Below are positions 1,427 through 59,351 of a stretch of DNA of 64,000 nucleotides, in pieces. A model generated the notes under the pieces. That model was given only the letters and a program-made list of their open reading frames with translations. It made no database searches and had not been told where the DNA came from. The translations under genes were made by a program, and so were the position numbers. Position 1 is the stretch's first letter. Every line of letters starts with the position of its first letter. The DNA lies in assembly GCA_045106015.1 (NCBI GenBank), contig JBGCEE010000032.1, positions 1,668-65,667 of the forward strand. The letters run 5' to 3'. This DNA is from Akkermansiaceae bacterium. Lineage in GTDB: Bacteria > Verrucomicrobiota > Verrucomicrobiia > Verrucomicrobiales > Akkermansiaceae.

Positions 1427-2221
1427 ATGAAAGTTTTCTTCACTCAACTAATCGTTACTGCTGCCACTCTTTTCGTTGTCGGTTGTGATAGGGGTGGTAG
1501 CCCAAACCTCTCCAGTGCGGTAACGTTGGGAGATGTTGGGTCTGTGAAAAGGTTTATAGCAGCCGGGGTGGATGTGAATTCTCCGGCAGACAGTCCTCCA
1601 TTATATGTCGCAACGATGTTCGCGGTAGATCTTCGAAAGGATCCTCGTCCGAACATGCAGGAGAAAGAAAAGAACTACACCAAGATTATCGAGTTACTTG
1701 TCGAGGGAGGAGCGGACCTGGATGCACGGGAAGGTGCAGGACATACGGCGTTGGCTAGAGCGGCAAAGAACGGGCATAAAGAAATCGTACAATTTTTCAT
1801 TTCCGAGGGTGCTGATGTGAATGTGTTGTTGTATGAAAACCGGACAAAAACAGCATTGGATTCGGCCTTGGCAGCGGGCGAATCTGAAATTGCCGAGATA
1901 CTCCGAAAACATGGTGGCAAGACTCGGGCAGAAATTGTGGAAGAAACGGAAGAGGGGGGTGTCGTCGAAAATCCAGATCGTGACAAAGCCGAAGCTTACT
2001 TCACTGCGCTTGGAAACGTTCAATCTGCTCAGGAAGAAGAGAAACTTCTGACCGAGTTCGGCGAGTGGTTGAAGAAAAATGACTACAAGGTCAGCGTTGA
2101 AGAAAGGGATGGAAAGTACAGACTCACTTGCTCTTCTTTTCCGCCTGTTACTCCGTGGATCGAACACACATTCTTCGATCAAAAAAATTTGGAGCGACTC
2201 CCTCGCCTTGGCGAGAAGTGA
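1427..2221 (+). CDS. Ankyrin-repeat lipoprotein with extra C-terminal domain
   Basis: ATG at 1427 gives a signal peptide and lipobox (LFVVGC). Ankyrin motifs AGVDVN..PPLYVA, GADLDAREGAGHTALARAAKNGHKEIVQFFISEGADVN and KTALDSA. The ORF track starts it at 1355. Confidence 0.85.
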   Translation: MKVFFTQLIVTAATLFVVGCDRGGSPNLSSAVTLGDVGSVKRFIAAGVDVNSPADSPPLYVATMFAVDLRKDPRPNMQEKEKNYTKIIELLVEGGADLDAREGAGHTALARAAKNGHKEIVQFFISEGADVNVLLYENRTKTALDSALAAGESEIAEILRKHGGKTRAEIVEETEEGGVVENPDRDKAEAYFTALGNVQSAQEEEKLLTEFGEWLKKNDYKVSVEERDGKYRLTCSSFPPVTPWIEHTFFDQKNLERLPRLGEK

Positions 2222-50606: not shown

Positions 50607-50621
50607 GAACGCTTGTGCGTC

Positions 50622-50649
50622 GGGAAATTCCGTGCTCGAAGAATTTCCC
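50622..50649. promoter_or_regulatory. Perfect 9-bp inverted repeat upstream of the metal ATPase
   Basis: GGGAAATTC-N10-GAATTTCCC. Imperfect pairing extends outward to CTTGT/ACAAG (50612-50664). Confidence 0.45.
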
Positions 50650-50672
50650 ACGTGGCGCTACAAGGGTCGTGT

Positions 50673-53036
50673 ATGAAGGGGGAAGAGAGATCGTCCGATT
50701 TGCTTGGAGATGTGATTCATGACTTAGCAGATCAGCAGGGTGTCGTGAAAGTTCGCGCGGACCCCGAGCATGGGCGTCTCGAAATTGATTTTGACCCAAA
50801 AGAGATGAGCGAAGGCGAACTGCGAAAAATCGCCGGTGAGGATGCTAGCGAGTTGGCGGAGGAATTGAGGAAGTTAAGTTTTCGATTGGAGAATTCGGGA
50901 TGCGAAGCAGGTGCGCTTCGATTGGAGAAAAAGGTTAGCAATGTCCATGGTGTTCGGCATGCGACGGCAACTTACATCGGTAAGGTCCTGTGCCTGACTT
51001 TTGATCAGTCCATGGCGGCGGAGGACGAAGTGGTTGCTGGTATTCAGCAAGCTGGGGCTGAAGTAAAACCACTGGAATTTGGTAAAGGGGGTAAGACTTC
51101 GTTTGCCGACAAACTAAAAGCGGGTGAGCTTAACGAGGAAATCTCGTGTGGTCTTGGATTTGCTTTTTTGATTGCTGCGTTTGTGTCCGAGAAAATTGCT
51201 GGCATGGGTGTTTTGGCCATTGGATTTTATGTGGGTGCGTATGTATTCGCAGGCCAGGAGGGAGTCAGATCTGCGATTGCGTCTCTTAAGGAGAAGGTCT
51301 TGGACGTGGATGTGTTGATGGTACTTGCAGCCATCGGTGCGGCCATCGTCGGTGCTCCATTTGAAGGTGCACTGCTTTTATTCCTTTTCAGTTTTTCGAA
51401 CGTTCTACAACGCTATGCGATGGAGCGGACACATCGGGCAATCGAGTCTTTGCTCACGCTTCGGCCGGATGAGGCGTTGGTGAAGCGTGGGGGTAGGACG
51501 GTCCTTGTTCCCGTGGAGGACCTAGAGATCGGGGAAACGGTTGTGGTAAAGCCGGGAGAGCAGATTCCGGTGGATGGGGAGCTTTCCGAGGGTAGCACGC
51601 ATGTGAATGAATCCTCGCTGACTGGTGAGTCGATGCCAGTGGCGAAACACAAGGGTAGCGAACTCTTTGCAGGGACGATGAATCAGAGCGGAGGTATTGA
51701 ACTTAGGGTAACGAAGCGCTCCGAGGACTCGGCACTGGCGCGCATGGTTAAGCTTGTCGCCGAGGCTCAAGCTGAGAAGTCGAAAACCCAACGTTTTTTG
51801 GAAACTGCCGAGCAGTATTATGCGATGGGAGTCATTCTTTTTACGATAGGTGTATTCTTTTTACCTTGGTTGATTTGGGAAGAATCATTTTCCCAATCGT
51901 TTTACCGAGCGATGACAGTGATGGTAGTGGCTTCTCCCTGTGCGCTGATCATCAGTACTCCTGCAACGGTTTTGTCAGCGATTGGTGGGGCAGCAAGAAG
52001 GGGGATTCTTGTCAAAGGAGGTTCGCATTTGGAGCAGGCAGCAACGATTGATATAGTCGCGGTGGATAAGACAGGAACCCTCACAGAAGGAAAGCCTTCA
52101 CTGACGGAAATCGTGACCTTGCAAGGGGCTTCAATAATGTCGCCATCGCTGGGTGAAGATGCTCGAAGTCTTCTCCGTATGGCTGCGGGATTGGAAACAA
52201 GATCAGAACATCCGCTTGCGCACGCGATCGCAGATGCTGCTTCTTCCTTGGGTTTAGATATTCCAGAGGCATCCGAGTTTCAGTCGATAACTGGCAAAGG
52301 AGCCGAGGCGACTCTGGAATCCGAACGCTATGTCATCGGTAGTGAAAGATGGTTTCGCGATTCGCTGGCAGAAAATGTTGAAGAGCTTTCGAGCTCCGCC
52401 CATGAATTTCAGAAGAAAGGGCGAACTTGCGTTTGGCTTGGGGTGCGAAAGGGGAACAAGCTTTCGGTAAAAGCGGTATTCGCTATGGCGGATACGGTTC
52501 GCCAAGAAGCGAAGACTCTCGCGAAACAGCTTCATGTTTTGGGGATCAAAAAATTCGTCATGCTCACGGGGGATCAGAAGGTGGTCGCTGATACGATTGC
52601 TGCTGAGGTTGGGATTGATGAAGTTCATGCGGAGATGCTTCCCGAGAATAAACTGGAGGTGATTCGCGAACTGAAGAAAGAAGGAAAAGTCCTGATGATT
52701 GGGGATGGCGTGAACGACGCGCCGGCCTTGGCGACATCGGACCTGAGTATGGCGATGGGTGCGGCGGGAACGGATGTTGCGATGGAAACCGCAGATGTCG
52801 TGCTGATGGGGGATCGTTTGGAATCGATTCCACTGCTTTTGAATCATGCGAGGAGAGCCAGACGTGTTCTTATACAGAATCTCGCTTTCGCGACAGGCGT
52901 GATCATTGTTCTTGTGATCGGTGCGCTTGGATTTGCTTTGCCATTGCCCGTGGGTGTCGTGGGACATGAAGGCAGCACGGTGTTAGTTTGTCTCAATGGC
53001 TTGCGCCTTCTTTTGATCGGCAGGTCTGCAGTGTAG
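50673..53036 (+). CDS. Heavy-metal P-type ATPase, P1B-4 signature
   Basis: SPC (VASPCALII), TGES, DKTGT, SEHP, GDGVND and HEGST in the last TM. Confidence 0.93.
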   Translation: MKGEERSSDLLGDVIHDLADQQGVVKVRADPEHGRLEIDFDPKEMSEGELRKIAGEDASELAEELRKLSFRLENSGCEAGALRLEKKVSNVHGVRHATATYIGKVLCLTFDQSMAAEDEVVAGIQQAGAEVKPLEFGKGGKTSFADKLKAGELNEEISCGLGFAFLIAAFVSEKIAGMGVLAIGFYVGAYVFAGQEGVRSAIASLKEKVLDVDVLMVLAAIGAAIVGAPFEGALLLFLFSFSNVLQRYAMERTHRAIESLLTLRPDEALVKRGGRTVLVPVEDLEIGETVVVKPGEQIPVDGELSEGSTHVNESSLTGESMPVAKHKGSELFAGTMNQSGGIELRVTKRSEDSALARMVKLVAEAQAEKSKTQRFLETAEQYYAMGVILFTIGVFFLPWLIWEESFSQSFYRAMTVMVVASPCALIISTPATVLSAIGGAARRGILVKGGSHLEQAATIDIVAVDKTGTLTEGKPSLTEIVTLQGASIMSPSLGEDARSLLRMAAGLETRSEHPLAHAIADAASSLGLDIPEASEFQSITGKGAEATLESERYVIGSERWFRDSLAENVEELSSSAHEFQKKGRTCVWLGVRKGNKLSVKAVFAMADTVRQEAKTLAKQLHVLGIKKFVMLTGDQKVVADTIAAEVGIDEVHAEMLPENKLEVIRELKKEGKVLMIGDGVNDAPALATSDLSMAMGAAGTDVAMETADVVLMGDRLESIPLLLNHARRARRVLIQNLAFATGVIIVLVIGALGFALPLPVGVVGHEGSTVLVCLNGLRLLLIGRSAV

Positions 53037-53037
53037 A

Positions 53038-53352
53038 TCAGCGGCGTTGCAGTTCGCTTGAAGGGAAGAGCAGCCTCGCCATGCCGTTGAAAAGAGTCAT
53101 GAGCACCTTGTAGCAAACGAATAGGACTGCAGCGACCATGCCGATGGCGACAAAGAGAATAAGAAGCACAAAGCCAAGGATGAACCAGAGTGGCCACCAG
53201 CGGGAATCGAGCTTTCTCATCTTTCCTTGTAAGGTGCCCCAGCTCTGCCAGCGACTGCGTTGACGCTTGGATTTCTGAGCGGGATTTGGCTCCACAGCGA
53301 CCCCGTCGATCTCGACGACTTCGGCTTCGATGGTGGGTTCCTCACGGCTCAT
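53038..53352 (-). CDS. Hypothetical membrane protein
   Basis: MSREEPTIEAEVVEIDG...WWPLWFILG with a C-terminal hydrophobic hairpin. A TATACT -10-like hexamer lies 8 nt upstream (53361-53366). Confidence 0.7.
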   Translation of the reverse strand: MSREEPTIEAEVVEIDGVAVEPNPAQKSKRQRSRWQSWGTLQGKMRKLDSRWWPLWFILGFVLLILFVAIGMVAAVLFVCYKVLMTLFNGMARLLFPSSELQRR

Positions 53353-53406
53353 ACGGCAACAGTATACCGTGTGGGCGGAACTACGCACCTATAGAAAGCA
53401 AAAATC

Positions 53407-53476
53407 AAAAAAAGTGCGGCCCGACCGATCATCCCCAAGGAAAACCCAATAACCAGAGGAGTCTCAGTCGGACCGC
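53407..53476 (-). terminator. Intrinsic terminator with a 35-nt loop
   Basis: Minus strand GCGGTCCGACTGA pairs with TCGGTCGGGCCGC (13 bp, two G-U pairs that work only on this strand), followed by AC and seven T. Confidence 0.75.
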
Positions 53477-53520
53477 CTATAGATGAGGACAGCACGGAAC
53501 ATGCCAAAGTCGTTTTCGTT
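53407..53520 (-). ncRNA. Candidate small RNA (about 115 nt)
   Basis: Bounded by an extended -10 (TGCTACTAT) and a 13-bp stem plus U7 terminator. No long ORF. The 5' end is inferred. Confidence 0.5.
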
Positions 53521-53525
53521 TCGAA

Positions 53526-53534
53526 ATAGTAGCA
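53526..53534 (-). promoter_or_regulatory. Extended -10 promoter element
   Basis: Minus strand TG-C-TACTAT. No consensus -35 at 17-nt spacing. Confidence 0.4.
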
Positions 53535-53586
53535 AAGGCTTTCAATTCTCTATTGGACGATTCGACGAGGAAGCGCAGTCGAAATC

Positions 53587-54504
53587 TCAAACCATTGCAG
53601 CGCGTGCGAGTTCCTCACGACGGAAATTCGTTGGAGAATTCCCGGTGAAACGAGCAAAGCTGCGGTTGAACTGGGAAAGTGATTGGTAACCGATTTGGAA
53701 TGCGATTTCGGACACACGTGTTTCAGAGCGGAGCAGTTCTTTTTTCGCCCATTCGATGCGGCGACGGTTGACGTAGTCGGTGAGGGTCAGGCTGGTGGCG
53801 TCTTTGAAAACGCGGCAGAAATGAGACTCACTGAGCCCTGCCTGTCTGGCGACCAGCGAGAGGGGGAGCGGGTCGGCCAAGTTATTATCGATAAATTTTT
53901 TCGCGCGAGCTACGGCCGCAGGTTCGCTACCATTGCTGATGATCGCTAGCTTTTCGGCATGTTTGCCGAGTTGGCTGGCGAAGGTGGCGAGCAAGGTGAC
54001 CATGCTTTGGTAGCGCTCGGGTTCGACAACGGCGGTCTGTAAGTAGGCTTCCTTTAGTGCTGTGGCATCGCTTTCGCTAAGGCCTTGGCGCAGAAGTGTT
54101 TTTGTAACGGTTTCGAATTTTTTTGGAGTGGGAGTTTTATGAAAGACTTGTCCGGTGCGAAGCATTCCGATCAGGACACCGCTGCAAGAGACTGGGACCG
54201 CAGTGGCGGCCATGCCGGTGAAACAATGGCAGGTGGTTGGGCCGTGAATTTTTGCCTCTTCGTTTAGGCGGTTGTTTACCGAGATACAAGATTTGCAGGC
54301 GGTGGAGCAGAGGTTGAGTTTTTCACAAAAGGCGCTGCCGTTCGTAGAGTTTCTACAGGTGTCTTCGATTCCTGAATCTGGATCGACAAAGCGTAGCGGG
54401 AGCCCAGTAGCGCATCTGAATGCGTTTTGGTAGGTCGTGAAAAGCTCCGAACCTAGCACTTTTTCGTGCATGGCCTTCTTGAACTGTTCCGGATCGTTAA
54501 TCAT
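53587..54504 (-). CDS. AraC family regulator with N-terminal PocR-type sensor domain
   Basis: AF..ATGLPL, FC...C..C, CHCFTGM...AVPV, LRTGQVF. C-terminal AraC double HTH (LSESHFCRVFK, IAFQIGYQSLSQFNRSF). Confidence 0.92.
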   Translation of the reverse strand: MINDPEQFKKAMHEKVLGSELFTTYQNAFRCATGLPLRFVDPDSGIEDTCRNSTNGSAFCEKLNLCSTACKSCISVNNRLNEEAKIHGPTTCHCFTGMAATAVPVSCSGVLIGMLRTGQVFHKTPTPKKFETVTKTLLRQGLSESDATALKEAYLQTAVVEPERYQSMVTLLATFASQLGKHAEKLAIISNGSEPAAVARAKKFIDNNLADPLPLSLVARQAGLSESHFCRVFKDATSLTLTDYVNRRRIEWAKKELLRSETRVSEIAFQIGYQSLSQFNRSFARFTGNSPTNFRREELARAAMV

Positions 54505-54577
54505 GTGTAAGCTCAAATTTCCTGAGAACGTGAGGGAAACTAGATGAGTTTCCGATCTTGTGCAACTTTTCATGAAC

Positions 54578-56935
54578 TTACGGATTTTGAGGGTATTTTT
54601 TTTCGTTTTTCAGGCCGATGGCAACGATTCCGAGGCAGATGGCAGAGCTGAGCGGCATAATGATGGCTGCGATCAGAGGGCTCATAAGGCCGAGTAGAGC
54701 CGCACTGATGGCAGCGGCGTTGTAAATGAGGGCAAAGCTAAATGCGGTGGCGACGGTGAGGTGCCGCCGACGAGCCAGTTCGAGTAAGCCAGGCAGGAAA
54801 CGAAGGCTCTGGCCGAGGAAAAAAAAGTCGGATTTTGTCTCTAGCAAACTGCGGTCGACAACGGGTGTGCCTGTGGCGAAGGCGGCATTGAAGGCAAGGG
54901 AGTCGTTGGCGCCATCACCGAGGTAGAGGGTGTCGCGGCGATCGATTTGGCGGACAAGTTCCTCTTTTTCCGCAGGTTGCAGAGTCGAATGGGCATCTGC
55001 GAGGTCAATACCCAGCAGTTTCGCGGTGGATTGCACTTTCTCGTTACGATCACCAGAGAGGATGACGAGACGGTGGGTGGTTCGAAGTCGCTCCAGTGCT
55101 TCTCTGGCATCGGGGCGGAGGCTTTCCTCGAAATGGAAGCAGGCGATGGTTTTGCCAGCGTGGCAGAGTTCGGCGTCATGTGGGGAAAAAGTTCCGGTGT
55201 TTTCAGAAGCCCAGCCAGGCCGGCCCAGTGTCCATTCGCCGGATTTGTCAGTGAAGCGCCTGCCCATGCCGGGGACGTCCTCGATTTCGATGGGTGCGGA
55301 GAGCCGAAGTTCGGTGAGGCTTTTTTTCCCAAGAGATTCGAGAAGTGTCCTTGAAACTGGATGGAGCGATGCATGAGACAAGCGGGCAAGGGCTAGGCGG
55401 GCTGGGTCTGTGAGTGTTGAGATGGAATCGGGGTTGGTGAGGACGGGGCGCTCTAGGGTGAGGGTTCCGGTTTTATCGAAAATGATGGTTCGAATGCGGC
55501 AGAGTCTTGCCCAAAGTTGGGACTCGCGGATGAAGACACCGGCGCGCTCCATGCGCGAACCTGCGAGTTCATCAGCGAAGGGCAGAGCTACGCCGAGGGC
55601 GCAGGGGCAGGAGACCACAAAAACCGAGATCATGACCTGCAGCGCGGTCGCGAATCCGGCAGCAGGAATCCAAAAGGCAAAGCCAGCAATGCCGATGAGA
55701 ATGATGGCGATGATATAGTATTTGAGAACCTTTTCGAGGGCTGGAATGCGGGTGGGAGAGCGTGTGGATTCGGTGAGTTTACAGAGAAGTGAGTCCTGCC
55801 ATGTTTCTGAAGAGATTAGAATGACGGGGTCTTTACCCAAGTGAATCGCCCCGGCGGGAACATGACGCCCAGCACGGAACGTCTCTGGTTCTGCTTCACC
55901 ATTGATCCACTCTAGCGAGAACTCCGCAGCGTCGTCAGCGAGGGTGGAACTAACAGGAAGGGATTGGCCCGAGTTGACCTCGATGCGGAGACCGGGTTCG
56001 ATTTCGGAAAGTGGAATGGGCTCGGGTCGGTCAGGTGAACGAATCGAATCAGGAACCGGGCGACGGCGCTGAAGGCGGTTCCGGTTTTTTTCAACAGCGG
56101 CCAGCTGGAGGTAGCGACCCGCGAGCATTAGGAAGACGAACGTGGCAACAAAATCAAAGTAGAGGAGACCTTCGACGCCGAGAGCCCAACCGATTAGCGA
56201 GCCACAAAAGGCGAAAATGATTCCCAAGGCGATGGGTAGGTCGATATGAGGGATTTTCGCGCGAGCGGCTTGCCAAGCACGGCGGATGAAATAACTACCG
56301 CCTACGAGCATCGCAAGCGTGGCGGAGAGAAAGGTTACGAGCTGGAAGATTCCGGCAAAGGCAAAATCGTCTTCCATGCCGAGGTAGCTCGGGAGAGTGA
56401 AGACCATTCCGTTCATGGCGAAGGCCGCACAAAGCCCAAGCTTCACGGCCAGTTCGCGCGACTCGCTGCGCAGGGTTCCCGAGCGTTTGGGTGTGATGGA
56501 ATAACCGAAAGATGCGACTTCGTGGGCGAAGGCGACAAGATCGGTTTGGCCGGATGTCCATTTGAGGTTCAGATTACCCGTTGCTGGATGGGCAGATGCT
56601 TCAATTGCACCTTCGTATCGCTGGAAAACTTTCTCCACCAGCCAGACGCAACCGACGCATGAGAGGCCTTCCAAAGAGAACTCCGCCTCGGCGAGATCAC
56701 CATGTTCCAGAAGCTCTTCGGTTTCGTTTTTTCGCGCTACCAACCACTCGAAGTCTTGTGATTCGAATGGTGTGCTCCTGACGGGTCGGATGGTCTTATT
56801 ACTACGAAGATCGTAGAAGCGATCCAGCCCTTCGTCTTGAATGAGATCGTAAACGAATTCGCAGCCACGGCAGCAGAACTTCTCCAGCGAGCCGGTCGCT
56901 GAGAAAGGTGTGGCGCAGTGGACGCAGGTATTCAA
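54578..56935 (-). CDS. ccoI: Copper-transporting P1B ATPase, cbb3 oxidase maturation (CcoI/FixI)
   Basis: N-terminal CVHC...FCCRGC, HMA GLSCVGC, SCPCALG, DKTGT, GDGAND, YN and MPLSS. Confidence 0.9.
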   Translation of the reverse strand: MNTCVHCATPFSATGSLEKFCCRGCEFVYDLIQDEGLDRFYDLRSNKTIRPVRSTPFESQDFEWLVARKNETEELLEHGDLAEAEFSLEGLSCVGCVWLVEKVFQRYEGAIEASAHPATGNLNLKWTSGQTDLVAFAHEVASFGYSITPKRSGTLRSESRELAVKLGLCAAFAMNGMVFTLPSYLGMEDDFAFAGIFQLVTFLSATLAMLVGGSYFIRRAWQAARAKIPHIDLPIALGIIFAFCGSLIGWALGVEGLLYFDFVATFVFLMLAGRYLQLAAVEKNRNRLQRRRPVPDSIRSPDRPEPIPLSEIEPGLRIEVNSGQSLPVSSTLADDAAEFSLEWINGEAEPETFRAGRHVPAGAIHLGKDPVILISSETWQDSLLCKLTESTRSPTRIPALEKVLKYYIIAIILIGIAGFAFWIPAAGFATALQVMISVFVVSCPCALGVALPFADELAGSRMERAGVFIRESQLWARLCRIRTIIFDKTGTLTLERPVLTNPDSISTLTDPARLALARLSHASLHPVSRTLLESLGKKSLTELRLSAPIEIEDVPGMGRRFTDKSGEWTLGRPGWASENTGTFSPHDAELCHAGKTIACFHFEESLRPDAREALERLRTTHRLVILSGDRNEKVQSTAKLLGIDLADAHSTLQPAEKEELVRQIDRRDTLYLGDGANDSLAFNAAFATGTPVVDRSLLETKSDFFFLGQSLRFLPGLLELARRRHLTVATAFSFALIYNAAAISAALLGLMSPLIAAIIMPLSSAICLGIVAIGLKNEKKYPQNP

Positions 56936-56973
56936 AGATTCAAAAGTAAGTTTTACCTCTCCCTGATGGAGCT

Positions 56974-57669
56974 CTAGTGGCAGCAGGAGGGAAGGTCAGA
57001 TTTTGTATCCGTCGGCGATTGGGAAAACGGAAGAGTGCCCCAGAGACGGAAGGCGATGAGACAGGCAGCGGCGATTGCGAAAGTGCGCTGGATGGGGACG
57101 AGATTGAACCGCTTGCCGATGTGGCGGAAACTCTGCTGGGCGATCCAGAGGAGCGGTACGGTCCCGAGACCGAAGGCGAGTGCGAATTCAGCACCCCGCA
57201 TGGCCGAGCCAGTGAGAAGTGATGCGCCGAAGAGTAGATAGAGGGGGCCACATGGGAGAAGTGGCGTCAGAGACCCAAGGGCAATTCCGCTGCGGATGGG
57301 CGATAATCTGCCGAGCCGGAAGCGCATCTTGGCTGTCCATTTCATCAGGGATGGAGGACGAGGAAGCTTTTTCTCCAGCCCGAATCCAAAAATCAGAAAG
57401 ACAACGACAAGCACCCATGGGAGGAGTGCAGCGGGTGAGGAGAAGAACCATTCGAGAGGCTGGCGCCCAATCGCCCCGCAGATGGCTCCGATGGTTCCGT
57501 AAGCGGCGAGGCGGGAAAGATGGTAAGAGGTTGTGGCGATGAGCCTTTGAGTTTCCGTTGCAGGCATGGCCGAAAGGCCACAGGCGATGGGTCCGCACAT
57601 ACCGACGCAATGGACGCTGGTCACGAGACCAGCGACAAGCGCTCCGACAGTAGTTTGGACGGGATCCAT
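56974..57669 (-). CDS. DsbD_2 / sulfite exporter TauE-SafE-like protein of cco clusters
   Basis: SVHCVGMCGPI, YHLSRL..YG..GA..G, LLPCGPLY, FGLGTVP. Confidence 0.9.
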   Translation of the reverse strand: MDPVQTTVGALVAGLVTSVHCVGMCGPIACGLSAMPATETQRLIATTSYHLSRLAAYGTIGAICGAIGRQPLEWFFSSPAALLPWVLVVVFLIFGFGLEKKLPRPPSLMKWTAKMRFRLGRLSPIRSGIALGSLTPLLPCGPLYLLFGASLLTGSAMRGAEFALAFGLGTVPLLWIAQQSFRHIGKRFNLVPIQRTFAIAAACLIAFRLWGTLPFSQSPTDTKSDLPSCCH

Positions 57670-57675
57670 CGTAGA

Positions 57676-57816
57676 TTATTTCTCGGATGTCACTTCGATG
57701 CGTTCCGGCGTGTGTTTCACGGCGATGAAGATGAGGCTGGACCATGCGGCCATAAGAAGTGCGAAGGCGCCGATTACAAAGAGCCAAGGACGGATGTTTG
57801 CGGATTTCTTTTTCAT
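57676..57816 (-). CDS. 46-aa single-TM protein (CcoH/FixH-position gene)
   Basis: Translated by hand: MKKKSANIRPWLFVIGAFALLMAAWSSLIFIAVKHTPERIEVTSEK. ATGA overlap with the ccoG stop. Confidence 0.8.
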   Translation of the reverse strand: MKKKSANIRPWLFVIGAFALLMAAWSSLIFIAVKHTPERIEVTSEK

Positions 57817-59210
57817 TTCAGTTGGTTGGGGTTAGGTCCCAGGAATTTGATTGTCTGGGTGATGGTTTGTTTGCCTGGGTCGGCGGAGATTTGCAGAGTC
57901 AGCTCAGTGGGGCCGGTGTAGGTTTCTCGATCGTTGAGAATGATGAGTGGGCGACTCGTTTCTGCCAGAGCGTTGAGCGTAATTGATTCGCCAGTGCCAC
58001 TGAGAGTGAATCCCTCCGGAGGATCTTGGAGGGAGAAGGTGTATTCAACAGGTTGGTTGCGCTTGTTGAGCAGGCGGAGCTGATAATGATTTCTAACAGA
58101 GCTCTGATCAACGAAGAACGGGGCGCCTTTCATCCGCGATAGATCGACGTGGAAGGGCCTTGCTCGGAAGTAAGCGGTCGTCCCCATGGCGGCGAGGCCC
58201 AGCATGCCGAGGACAGCGTAGAGAAAGATACGCGGGCGGATGATACGGCGTTTCTTACCTTGCAGTCCGGAAGTCGAATCGTAGCGGATCAGGCCTTCGG
58301 GGCGTTTGACTTTCCGCATGATGTCGTTGCAGGCATCGATACAGGCTGCGCAACCGATACATTCCATTTGGAGGCCGTTGCGGATGTCGATACCCGTTGG
58401 GCAGACCTGCACACAGCGGGTGCATTCGATGCAATCGCCGGCGTTGGGATCAGAGGCCTTTCCGCGAGGTTCCCCGCGCTTGGAGTCATATCCGATGATG
58501 ACCGTTTCCTCGTCAGTCAGCGCGGATTGGATGCGTCCGTAGGGGCAGAGGATGATGCAGAATTGCTCTCGGAACCAGGCGAAACAGAAGTAGAGGGTGC
58601 CTGTGAGGGCGATGATGATGGTGAAGGTTGCTCCGTGCTGGAGCGGTCCTTCCTGCATGAATTGGTACAGGCGCGGCAAGGAGACGAAGTAGCTGATAAA
58701 CACATGGGCGATTAGGGTTGAGGCGATGAAATAGAGTCCGTATTTAACGGCCCTACGTATGGTTTTTCTCGTGCTTGAAGGAGCTGCAGCGAGGCGGCGC
58801 CGTGCGGTGGCATCGCCATCGATCCAGCGTTCAATGCGCCGAAAGACATGTTCCAGGAAAACGGTGTAAGGGCAGGCCCATCCGCACCAGAGGCGGCCGA
58901 GGAGCGCGGTGATAAAAAAGAGTGAGAAACCGAGCCCGCTGATGAGGAAAAAGAAGACCCAGAGGTCTTGGGCTAGGAGGGTCAGGCCAAAGATATGGAA
59001 GCGGCGGTTTTCTACATCAAAGAACAGAGCGGGGGCTCCGTTGATCGGAATCCAAGGCATCAGTACGTAGACGGCAATGAGCAGAATTCCAAATAGCCGC
59101 CGGAACAGCGTGAAGCGACCTTTGACGTCCGCTGGGTGGAGGACGAAATGAGACCCGTCCGGATTAATCGTCGTCAGCGAGACAAGATTTGGACTTTTGT
59201 TTTTTTGCAT
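57813..59210 (-). CDS. ccoG: Cytochrome c oxidase accessory ferredoxin-type protein CcoG/FixG
   Basis: GRLWCGWACP, REQFC...CPYGR.QS, CIECTRCVQVCPTGIDIRNGLQMECIGCAACIDAC. Confidence 0.96.
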   Translation of the reverse strand: MQKNKSPNLVSLTTINPDGSHFVLHPADVKGRFTLFRRLFGILLIAVYVLMPWIPINGAPALFFDVENRRFHIFGLTLLAQDLWVFFFLISGLGFSLFFITALLGRLWCGWACPYTVFLEHVFRRIERWIDGDATARRRLAAAPSSTRKTIRRAVKYGLYFIASTLIAHVFISYFVSLPRLYQFMQEGPLQHGATFTIIIALTGTLYFCFAWFREQFCIILCPYGRIQSALTDEETVIIGYDSKRGEPRGKASDPNAGDCIECTRCVQVCPTGIDIRNGLQMECIGCAACIDACNDIMRKVKRPEGLIRYDSTSGLQGKKRRIIRPRIFLYAVLGMLGLAAMGTTAYFRARPFHVDLSRMKGAPFFVDQSSVRNHYQLRLLNKRNQPVEYTFSLQDPPEGFTLSGTGESITLNALAETSRPLIILNDRETYTGPTELTLQISADPGKQTITQTIKFLGPNPNQLK

Positions 59211-59351
59211 GGGCTCCGGCACGGCAAAAAACATGGCATTTCCCGTGGAACCATGCTCCGCATGAGGTCTCGGAAAGTGCGCGGAATTTGCGCGATGAAG
59301 CGAAAAATTCCTCTATCTCAAGTGAATTTTGAGGTTTTTCTTAGCCAGTTC

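What the first reader, a model, noticed from the sequence alone, without database searches (positions are those of the whole stretch)
53407..53534. Candidate sRNA directly downstream of the PocR-AraC regulator
Seen on the minus strand: an extended -10 TGCTACTAT (53534-53526), about 45 nt of low-structure sequence, then a 13-bp stem with G-U pairs enclosing an unusually large 35-nt G/U-rich loop (GACTCCTCTGGTTATTGGGTTTTCCTTGGGGATGA), then U7. The next gene has its own TATACT, so this unit looks independent. It also holds a 12-codon ORF (MFRAVLIYRRSD, 53502-53464) whose stop lies in the 5' arm of the stem. Inference: an activator-dependent sRNA (no consensus -35), conceptually like FnrS, with the loop (anti-SD-like CTCCT) as seed. 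The alternative is a leader-peptide attenuator.
Basis: partly seen in the sequence, partly recalled or inferred. Interest (0 to 1): 0.7.

Follow-up and report, generated by a model that had tools for sequence, protein, structure and literature searches.

The report
Conserved sigma-54-driven hairpin small RNA

Summary
The hairpin plus U7 (53477-53407, minus strand) is real and far more stable than chance (-35.1 kcal/mol, z -5.1). Homologues were found in 30 other loci, 27 distinct sequences in all. They were reached by three independent routes: AraC orthologues, a DNA pattern scan of metagenomes, and the neighbouring genes C3 and FAH. They share a 14-bp outer helix with compensatory changes, an inner helix, a nearly invariant apical region (GGUUAUUGGGUUUUCCYUGGGG) and a U-tract. 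They lie in at least five unrelated gene contexts, sometimes facing the downstream gene. No Rfam family matches.

What is conserved is a canonical sigma-54 -24/-12 promoter (TGGCAT-N5-GTGCT, 53506-53491). It places the start at about 53480, 3 nt before the stem.

Best reading: an independently transcribed, activator-dependent (bEBP/sigma-54) sRNA of about 74 nt whose body is its own terminator hairpin and which acts in trans through the invariant loop.

No RNA-seq data were available, and the target and partner are unknown.

This is a new RNA family of a known kind. Interest is moderate.

The parts
53491..53506 (-). Predicted sigma-54 (RpoN) promoter, TGGCATGTTCCGTGCT. The -24 GG is at 53505-53504 and the -12 GC at 53493-53492.
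   Evidence: The same TGGCAY-N5-NTGCT box sits 12-15 nt before the stem in all 14 loci of this type and 28-29 nt before it in 4 more. The strict pattern occurs 19 times in the 101 loci then held, and 18 of those lie directly upstream of the RNA.
53407..53480 (-). Predicted sRNA transcript, about 74 nt. The +1 is inferred at A53480 (plus or minus 2), 12 nt after the -12 C. The 3' end is in the U-tract.
   Evidence: Covariance model R1 scores 90.8 bits, E 1e-22, for 53408-53479. Fold is -35.1 kcal/mol, z -5.06. The start is inferred from promoter geometry and has not been measured.
53464..53477 (-). 5' arm of the outer helix (GGCGGUCCGACUGA).
   Evidence: 14 pairs, 4 of them with compensatory double changes, and 98.5% of cells paired.
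53415..53428 (-). 3' arm of the outer helix (UCGGUCGGGCCGCA). It doubles as the terminator stem.
   Evidence: The U-G pairs make the structure specific to this strand; the reverse strand scores only 14-36 bits with the model.
53433..53454 (-). Nearly invariant apical region, GGUUAUUGGGUUUUCCUUGGGG. It holds the 12-nt loop UUAUUGGGUUUU (53452-53441) and its closing pairs, and is the proposed interaction surface.
   Evidence: It is conserved in homologues found without using this sequence: L001, L009, L011, L014, L064, L102-L104 and, with one extra U, L111-L112.
53407..53413 (-). U7 tract of the intrinsic terminator.
   Evidence: A T-rich tract follows the stem in all homologues, though it is short or interrupted in some (L009, L011, L102).
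53526..53534 (-). It is not part of the unit.
   Evidence: Not conserved in alignment A1 or in the other loci. Not called by the promoter scan.
53464..53502 (-). The 12-codon ORF MFRAVLIYRRSD. It is not a gene; it lies mostly upstream of the predicted start site.
   Evidence: Its ATG is the AT of the -24 box plus the following G. No equivalent ORF exists in any homologue.
53038..53352 (-). Downstream gene 'C3': a 104-aa conserved hypothetical protein with a hydrophobic segment read as one membrane helix (topology not run through a predictor). It has its own -10 (TATACT, 53366-53361) 8 nt before the ATG, which implies a near-leaderless mRNA.
   Evidence: The C3 ATG is 50-60 nt after the RNA end in 11 loci. 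The family has 109 clusters and no Pfam match.
53587..54573 (-). Upstream gene: PocR sensory domain plus AraC-type HTH regulator. It is the last gene of a FixG/CcoG - DsbD_2 - CcoI-like ATPase - AraC string.

Best explanation
The unit is a stand-alone small-RNA gene.

Shown or directly read from the sequences:
1. A canonical sigma-54 promoter (53506-53491) is conserved directly upstream.
2. The body is a single long imperfect hairpin whose pairing is kept by compensatory changes. It has G-U pairs that exist only on this strand and is followed by a U-tract.
3. The element recurs in unrelated gene neighbourhoods and orientations in related bacteria.

Inferred:
- RNA polymerase with sigma-54, opened by an as yet unidentified AAA+ enhancer-binding activator, starts at about A53480, 3 nt before the stem.
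- It terminates at U7, giving a transcript of about 74 nt that appears only when that activator is switched on.
- The RNA acts in trans through the nearly invariant 12-nt G/U-rich apical loop (UUAUUGGGUUUU) and its closing pairs. The most likely mode is pairing with A/C-rich stretches of target mRNAs. The hairpin plus U-tail would be the stability and chaperone module.
- In the window the same hairpin probably also ends the ccoG-ccoI-araC transcript.
For: Structure
- The fold has z -5.06 on the minus strand, against -21.3 kcal/mol on the plus strand.
- On 26 homologues, 95.8% of cells are paired and 6 pairs have double changes. 0 of 500 shuffles reach the covariation score, and slid controls pair at most 59.7%.
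- An independent MAFFT plus RNAalifold run gives the same structure, with 5 compensatory pairs.
- Reverse-strand model scores are 14-36 bits against 63-100 bits.

Independence
- Of 67 AraC-orthologue loci, only 5 carry the element, and in 2 of them it lies 2.2-2.5 kb away.
- It also lies after LeuB-like, ADH, MetF and Mpl genes. Genes on the opposite strand follow it in L076, L075, L089 and L069.
- It was recovered without any RNA-sequence criterion upstream of C3 (L102-L104) and upstream of FAH in Luteolibacter yonseiensis (L111).

Promoter
- TGGCAY-N5-NTGCT is present in 18 of 18 loci of types A and B at fixed distance.
- 18 of the 19 strict matches in the 101 loci then held are directly upstream of the RNA.
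- bEBPs with GAFTGA or GSFTGA motifs occur in related Luteolibacter/Verrucomicrobia loci L023 and L030.

Other
- No known family matches.
- The downstream gene has its own -10 at 8-10 nt from its ATG.
Against: - There is no transcript evidence. No RNA run could be listed for the window or for two related loci.
- rpoN and the activator are not in the window.
- The sigma-54 match in the window alone is not significant: 4 loose matches against 1.95 expected. Its weight comes only from conservation.
- No target was found. Duplex scans of the window and a complement search of all loci gave nothing near gene starts.
- The helix sequence is more conserved than pairing alone requires, which fits protein recognition at least as well as a base-pairing seed.
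- The loop conservation among the 24 metagenome hits is partly by construction, because the search pattern specified it.
- One subgroup (type C) has no sigma-54 box, so sigma-54 control is not universal in the family.
Confidence: 0.6

Rival explanations
1. The RNA is made as described, but it works by binding or sequestering a protein, or as the RNA part of a small RNP, and not by pairing with mRNAs. The conserved helix, internal loop and apical loop would together form the protein's recognition site.
For: - Many helix positions are invariant, not only paired: C7, G8, G13, C15, G17 and their partners in A4. Meanwhile the flanking intergenic DNA cannot be aligned.
- The internal loop is mostly a tandem GA/GA.
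- No complementary target was found nearby.
Against: - No candidate RNA-binding protein is consistently adjacent.
- The internal-loop GA/GA is not kept in L011, L014 and L064.
- There is a single binding module, not the repeated motifs typical of sequestering RNAs such as CsrB or CrcZ (established knowledge).
Confidence: 0.2
2. The element is a cis-acting 5' leader or attenuator of the downstream small membrane-protein gene C3. Sigma-54-driven transcription would stop at the hairpin unless a factor allows read-through.
For: - RNA-C3 adjacency holds in 11 loci with a constant 50-60 nt gap, even where the upstream gene differs (AraC, TetR, rhomboid).
- The U-tract is weak in some members (L009, L011, L102).
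- Sigma-54 promoter plus leader terminator has a precedent in the Klebsiella nasF/NasR system (my own knowledge).
Against: - The same RNA occurs without C3 in at least five other contexts, and opposite-strand genes follow it in four loci.
- The predicted start is 0-3 nt before the stem, so there is no upstream RNA to form an antiterminator.
- C3 has its own -10 at 8-10 nt from the ATG, and the 50-60 nt gap is just the length of one promoter.
- In L108-L110 the sigma-54 box and 5' arm are deleted, yet C3 is intact.
- Distant C3 genes have no such element.
Confidence: 0.12
3. The hairpin is only the intrinsic terminator of the ccoG-ccoI-araC operon, and the upstream 'promoter' is a chance match.
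For: - It is the first terminator-like structure after the araC stop, 110 nt downstream.
- The sigma-54 match in one window is not significant by itself.
Against: - 62 of 67 AraC-orthologue loci have no such hairpin.
- The element is conserved in sequence in unrelated contexts. Ordinary terminators do not keep their loop sequence across genera.
- The sigma-54 box co-occurs with it in 18 loci.
Confidence: 0.03
4. One reading: a sigma-70 extended -10 at 53534-53526 drives an sRNA of about 125 nt, or a leader-peptide attenuator that uses the 12-codon ORF.
For: The letters TGCTACTAT and the ORF are present.
Against: - Neither is conserved in any of the homologous loci.
- There is no -35, and the promoter scan makes no call there.
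- The ATG of the ORF is part of the conserved -24 box.
- No alternative (antiterminator) pairing is predicted in the 136-nt fold.
Confidence: 0.03

Closest known systems
Qrr sRNAs of Vibrio (Rfam RF00378)
   Same: They are small RNAs transcribed from sigma-54 promoters that need a bEBP (LuxO). They end in a terminator hairpin with a U-tail and carry a highly conserved unpaired region used as seed.
   Different: There is no sequence or structure homology. The best Rfam score is 20.2 bits against a gathering score of 50, on L074 only, with no hit on the window. Qrr RNAs have four stem-loops, are about 100 nt long and are usually multi-copy. This RNA is a single hairpin of about 74 nt in a different phylum.
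Other sigma-54-dependent regulatory RNAs: GlmY, CrcZ/CrcY, NrsZ, Myxococcus Pxr (my own knowledge; papers listed)
   Same: Promoter class and logic: the RNA appears only when a signal-sensing AAA+ activator is on. CrcZ and GlmY act by binding proteins, which matches the protein-binding rival explanation.
   Different: They are all unrelated in sequence, longer and multi-hairpin. None is reported from Verrucomicrobia, and none matched in Rfam.
FnrS
   Same: It is a short, activator-dependent sRNA ending in an intrinsic terminator, and it sits near respiratory genes.
   Different: FnrS uses a sigma-70 promoter with an FNR box and has a C/U-rich single-stranded seed. Here the promoter is of the sigma-54 type and the conserved surface is a G/U-rich hairpin loop. 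There is no Rfam FnrS match. A search for an FNR box was not run.
Ordinary Rho-independent terminator
   Same: A GC-rich stem followed by a U-tract. It very probably terminates transcription, including that of the upstream operon.
   Different: The stem-loop is about 64 nt with an internal helix. Its loop sequence is nearly invariant across genera and gene contexts, and it has its own promoter abutting the stem.

Membership tests
Sigma-54 (-24/-12) promoter | GG and GC dinucleotides exactly 10 nt apart within TGGCAC-N5-TTGCW | tested here: met
   Window 53506-53491 reads TGGCATGTTCCGTGCT. The same box is present in 18 homologous loci.
Sigma-54 (-24/-12) promoter | Position conserved relative to the transcribed element across species | tested here: met
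   The distance from the -12 C to the stem is 12-15 nt in 14 loci and 28-29 nt in 4 loci. 18 of the 19 strict matches in the 101 loci then held are upstream of the RNA.
Sigma-54 (-24/-12) promoter | The organism encodes RpoN and a bEBP; a UAS for the activator is present | tested here: inconclusive
   No bEBP or RpoN-box motif in the window or in RNA-bearing loci. bEBPs with GAFTGA/GSFTGA are present in related loci L023 and L030. No UAS was identified.
Sigma-54 (-24/-12) promoter | Experimentally mapped, rpoN-dependent start site | not testable with these tools
   No RNA run could be listed.
Intrinsic terminator | Stable GC-rich hairpin immediately followed by a U-tract | tested here: met
   A 13-15 bp stem followed by U7 at 53413-53407. 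The generic scan missed it only because its loop limit is 8 nt.
Conserved structured RNA | Pairing kept by compensatory changes on one strand only | tested here: met
   5-6 pairs with double changes, 95.8% of cells paired, and 0 of 500 shuffles reach the covariation score. Strand asymmetry.
Qrr sRNA (RF00378) | Covariance-model score at or above the gathering score (50 bits) | tested here: not met
   20.2 bits on L074. No hit on the window.
   No Rfam hit on the window region at E up to 10.
   No search for this box was run on 53500-53586; the sequence is available.
Leader-peptide attenuator | Conserved short ORF | tested here: not met
   The ORF is absent from all homologues; its ATG is part of the -24 box.
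Leader-peptide attenuator | Translation of the ORF chooses between alternative hairpins | tested here: inconclusive
   Only the MFE and centroid fold of the 136-nt region were inspected; they show no alternative pairing. Suboptimal structures were not enumerated.
Riboswitch or cis-regulatory leader | Constant association and co-orientation with one class of downstream gene | tested here: not met
   At least five different downstream gene classes, and opposite-strand neighbours in L076, L075, L089 and L069.
Hfq- or ProQ-dependent base-pairing sRNA | Chaperone binding and validated mRNA targets paired to the seed | not testable with these tools
   Only local duplex scans were possible, and they found nothing.

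The most novel reading that the evidence does not exclude
This is the first defined riboregulator family of Verrucomicrobiales. It is a minimal, single-hairpin sRNA whose terminator is its whole body. In one clade it is under sigma-54/bEBP control and is kept as a fixed module with a leaderless small membrane-protein gene (C3) next to P-type ATPases and cbb3-oxidase maturation genes. The RNA, alone or together with C3, would form a signal-dependent switch for metal or respiratory homeostasis, possibly by binding a protein and not by pairing with mRNAs.
Probability: 0.2. Interest if true: 0.7.

Novelty: new member of a known kind. Interest (0 to 1): 0.55.

Why it matters
To my knowledge, and in the full-text searches run here, Verrucomicrobia have no characterised regulatory RNA. 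They are abundant in soil, water, plant-associated and gut habitats.

A short RNA that is nearly invariant in its loop across genera, has a recognisable sigma-54 promoter and is present in cultured strains gives a concrete entry point. The cultured carriers are Luteolibacter algae KCTC 22040 and L. yonseiensis. Three questions become directly testable:
- which signal and activator switch the RNA on;
- what it binds;
- whether its tight linkage to a conserved small membrane protein is functional.

The family could also be added to RNA family databases so that these intergenic regions stop being annotated as empty.

Tried and rejected
- **Rfam.** Permissive searches of the window region and of two homologous loci, plus a gathering-threshold search of the whole window, gave only noise (miRNA and CRISPR-repeat models, Qrr at 20 bits).
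- **tRNA/tmRNA.** None found.
- **Generic promoter and terminator scan.** It calls nothing at the element, because it has no sigma-54 model and a loop limit of 8 nt.
- **RNA-seq.** No RNA run could be listed for the window (twice) or for L074 and L098.
- **Target search.** Duplex folding of the loop against the whole window, and a search for the loop complement (AAAACCCAATAA, up to 1 mismatch) in all 113 sequences, found only the antisense of the RNA itself and scattered chance hits.
- **Activator search.** GAFTGA, Walker A and RpoN-box motifs were sought in all six frames. None is in the window or next to the RNA.
- **K-turn reading of the internal loop (GA/GA).** Considered, then dropped as a defining feature because L011, L014 and L064 do not keep it.
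- **SRP RNA, 6S RNA and ANTAR-type leaders.** Considered from memory and rejected because their defining motifs (GGAA tetraloop with AGCAGCC; a roughly 180-nt bubble; two hexaloop hairpins) are absent.
- **Mobile or viral origin.** The loop pattern is absent from viral contigs.
- **Literature.** Five full-text searches found no description of this RNA.

Full report
**What is in the sequence**

All coordinates in this section are on the minus strand. The PocR + AraC-HTH regulator gene (53587-54573; Pfam PocR 3e-21, HTH_18 4e-23) ends 110 nt before a long hairpin followed by U7.
- TGCTACTAT at 53534-53526.
- The 12-codon ORF at 53502-53464.
- The 13-bp stem with two U-G pairs.
- The 35-nt 'loop'.
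- U7 at 53413-53407.
- TATACT at 53366-53361.

Folding shows the 'loop' is not open. It contains an inner helix and a 12-nt apical loop, UUAUUGGGUUUU. The 74-nt unit 53480-53407 folds at -35.1 kcal/mol, z = -5.06, with 0 of 200 shuffles as good. The complementary strand reaches only -21.3 kcal/mol.

**Surroundings**

The genes upstream on the same strand are FixG/CcoG (57813-59234), a DsbD_2 membrane protein (56974-57669), a CcoI/FixI-like P-type ATPase (54578-56935) and the AraC regulator. Downstream lies a 104-aa hypothetical protein with a hydrophobic segment read as one membrane helix, called C3 here (53352-53038). It converges on a second P-type ATPase (50613-53036, plus strand). AraC orthologues place the window in Verrucomicrobiota, in Luteolibacter/Akkermansiaceae-type bacteria.

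**Homologues**

- *Via AraC.* I fetched 67 loci that encode AraC orthologues. Reading the DNA behind each stop codon showed a clearly homologous hairpin in only three of them: L011, L014 and L064. A covariance model built from the four sequences found two more in the same set. In L001 and L009 the element lies 2.5 and 2.2 kb beyond araC.
- *Via a DNA pattern.* A scan of metagenome contigs with the loop pattern gave 34 stretches, and 24 of them are full-length matches at 63-90 bits.
- *Via neighbouring genes.* That scan forces the loop sequence, so I also looked for members without any RNA criterion. C3 homologues led to L102, L103 and L104, all with the RNA 50-55 nt before the C3 ATG. Homologues of the FAH gene that follows the RNA in another subgroup led to L111 (Luteolibacter yonseiensis) and L112, again with the RNA upstream.
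- *Loop conservation.* In these independent members the apical region GGGUUA(U/A)UGGGUUUU(U)CC is still conserved.

**Structure**

- On 26 model-aligned sequences, 95.8% of cells are standard pairs and 6 pairs show changes on both sides.
- 0 of 500 column shuffles reach the covariation score, and sliding the partners drops pairing to 33-60%.
- A separate MAFFT alignment of 25 distinct sequences with RNAalifold gives the same structure. It has a 14-bp outer helix with 4 compensatory pairs (for example G-C to A-U in 6 sequences and C-G to U-A in 4) and an inner helix with a G-C/A-U/U-A pair.
- Several positions are U-G in most sequences, and the reverse strand scores only 14-36 bits. The structure therefore belongs to an RNA read from the minus strand of the window.

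**Independence from neighbouring genes**

The element occurs in at least five contexts:
- (A) ATPase - AraC - RNA - C3 - convergent ATPase. Variants have a TetR or rhomboid gene in place of AraC.
- (B) LeuB-like - RNA - DEAD-box helicase.
- (C) alcohol dehydrogenase (or other genes) - RNA - FAH - PqiA - PqiA - PqiB.
- (D) MetF - RNA.
- (E) Mpl - RNA.

In four loci the next gene is on the opposite strand. This pattern fits a stand-alone gene. It does not fit a terminator of araC or a leader of one particular gene.

**Promoter**

Instead, every type-A locus has TGGCAY-N5-NTGCT, the sigma-54 -24/-12 consensus with GG and GC exactly 10 nt apart. The box ends 12-15 nt before the stem in 14 of 14 loci. 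Four type-B loci have the same box 28-29 nt before the stem.

Across the 101 loci held at that point, both strands, the strict pattern TGGCAY-N6-TGCT occurs 19 times, and 18 of those are directly upstream of the RNA. In the window the box is 53506-53491. With the usual geometry this puts +1 at about A53480, 3 nt before the stem. The predicted product is therefore about 74 nt and consists almost entirely of the hairpin and its U-tail.

Sigma-54 promoters are strictly activator-dependent (established knowledge). No bEBP lies in the window or beside the RNA. Canonical bEBPs with GAFTGA or GSFTGA motifs do occur in related loci L023 and L030, so the machinery exists in this lineage.

Type-B and type-C members carry an extra 5' mini-hairpin (UGUCGCGACA, or GUCGCAAGAC with a GNRA loop). 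Type C has a CTTGCN -35-like element instead of a sigma-54 box. Promoter type therefore varies within the family.

**The short ORF**

Its ATG is the AT of the -24 box plus the next G. Where the box reads TGGCAC or TGGCTC there is no ATG, and in L064 the ATG is followed at once by TAA. The ORF also lies mostly upstream of the predicted start. The leader-peptide idea is rejected.

**Relation to C3**

In 11 loci the C3 ATG lies 50-60 nt after the RNA, and a TAnnnT hexamer sits 8-10 nt before the ATG. That suggests a near-leaderless C3 mRNA from its own promoter, and the gap is simply one promoter long.

- In L108-L110, a lineage seen on many contigs, the sigma-54 box and the 5' arm are deleted while the 3' half and C3 remain.
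- Distant C3 genes have no RNA upstream.
- Because the RNA starts at the stem base, no upstream segment is available to form an antiterminator.

A cis-attenuator role is therefore unlikely, though not excluded.

**What it is not**

- No Rfam family matches.
- No tRNA or tmRNA is present.
- The loop pattern is absent from viral contigs.
- Full-text searches found no description of this RNA.

**What remains open**

- *Expression.* There is no expression evidence.
- *Target.* No target was found.
- *Mode of action.* The helix is more conserved than pairing alone requires, so a protein partner is a serious alternative to mRNA pairing.
- *Loop conservation.* Among the metagenome hits it is partly imposed by the search pattern.

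**Verdict**

The promoter, start site, length, seed and analogy were wrong.

The best-supported description is a new, conserved, single-hairpin sRNA family of Verrucomicrobiales. In this lineage it is transcribed from a sigma-54 promoter.

My probabilities are about 0.8 that it is an independently transcribed conserved RNA. I give about 0.6 for the whole statement, including trans action through the loop.

Noticed in passing
L108 3888-3948 (same in L109 and L110): This looks like a decayed copy of the RNA. Only the 3' half (GGGTTATTGGGTTTTCCCTGTGGCTGATCCGTCGTGCCGCTTTTT) survives upstream of C3, and the 5' arm and the sigma-54 box are deleted. The lineage is widespread: its C3 protein, P0002, is listed on 78 contigs.
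   Followed up: partly
window 53038-53352 (-) and promoter 53361-53366: C3 is a conserved hypothetical protein of about 100 aa. It has an acidic N-terminus (EPTIEAEVVEIDG), a basic stretch, a hydrophobic segment read as one membrane helix (no topology predictor was run) and a C-terminal ELQRR. The family has 109 clusters and no Pfam domain. A -10-like hexamer 8-10 nt before the ATG in all relatives suggests a leaderless mRNA.
   Followed up: partly
L084 4495-4520 (-); L101 4595-4618; L074 5227-5240 (-); L111 2826-2837: Family members outside the window's subgroup carry an extra 5' mini-hairpin between the promoter and the main hairpin (UGUCGCGACA, or GUCGCAAGAC with a GNRA tetraloop). The FAH-linked subgroup has a CTTGCN -35-like element and no sigma-54 box.
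   Followed up: partly
window 53462-53463 with 53429-53430 (-): The internal loop between the two helices is a tandem GA/GA in most members and resembles a k-turn. It is replaced by AA/GA, AG/AA or AU/GA in L064, L011 and L014.
   Followed up: no
window 53559-53586 (-): An inverted repeat, GATTTCGAC-N11-GTCGAATC, lies directly after the araC stop codon and has no U-tract. It could be an RNA stem in the araC 3' end or a protein-binding site about 60-90 bp upstream of the sigma-54 box.
   Followed up: no
window 53509-53522 (-) and equivalent positions in the loci: An A-rich tract (GAAAA-N2) immediately upstream of the -24 box recurs in nearly all sigma-54-type members. It may be an extension of the promoter or a site for a DNA-bending protein.
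   Followed up: no
L023 about 1683-1824 (-); L030 7610-7751 (+): Canonical sigma-54 enhancer-binding proteins (GESGTGKE Walker A plus GAFTGA or GSFTGA) are encoded a few kb from the AraC orthologue in two related genomes.
   Followed up: no
window 54578-59234 (-): A FixG/CcoG - DsbD_2 - CcoI-like P-type ATPase - PocR/AraC gene string (cbb3 oxidase maturation type) lies upstream. A second P-type ATPase without an HMA domain (50613-53036, +) converges on C3. The C3 plus convergent-ATPase pairing is conserved in most related loci.
   Followed up: partly
L105 2920-2970; L106 2920-2975; L107 2925-2965: Distant C3 genes that lack the RNA share a different conserved upstream string, TTTTCCA-N9-10-CATTC(G/C)(C/G)TTTGC/GTTGC. 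It may be their promoter or operator.
   Followed up: no
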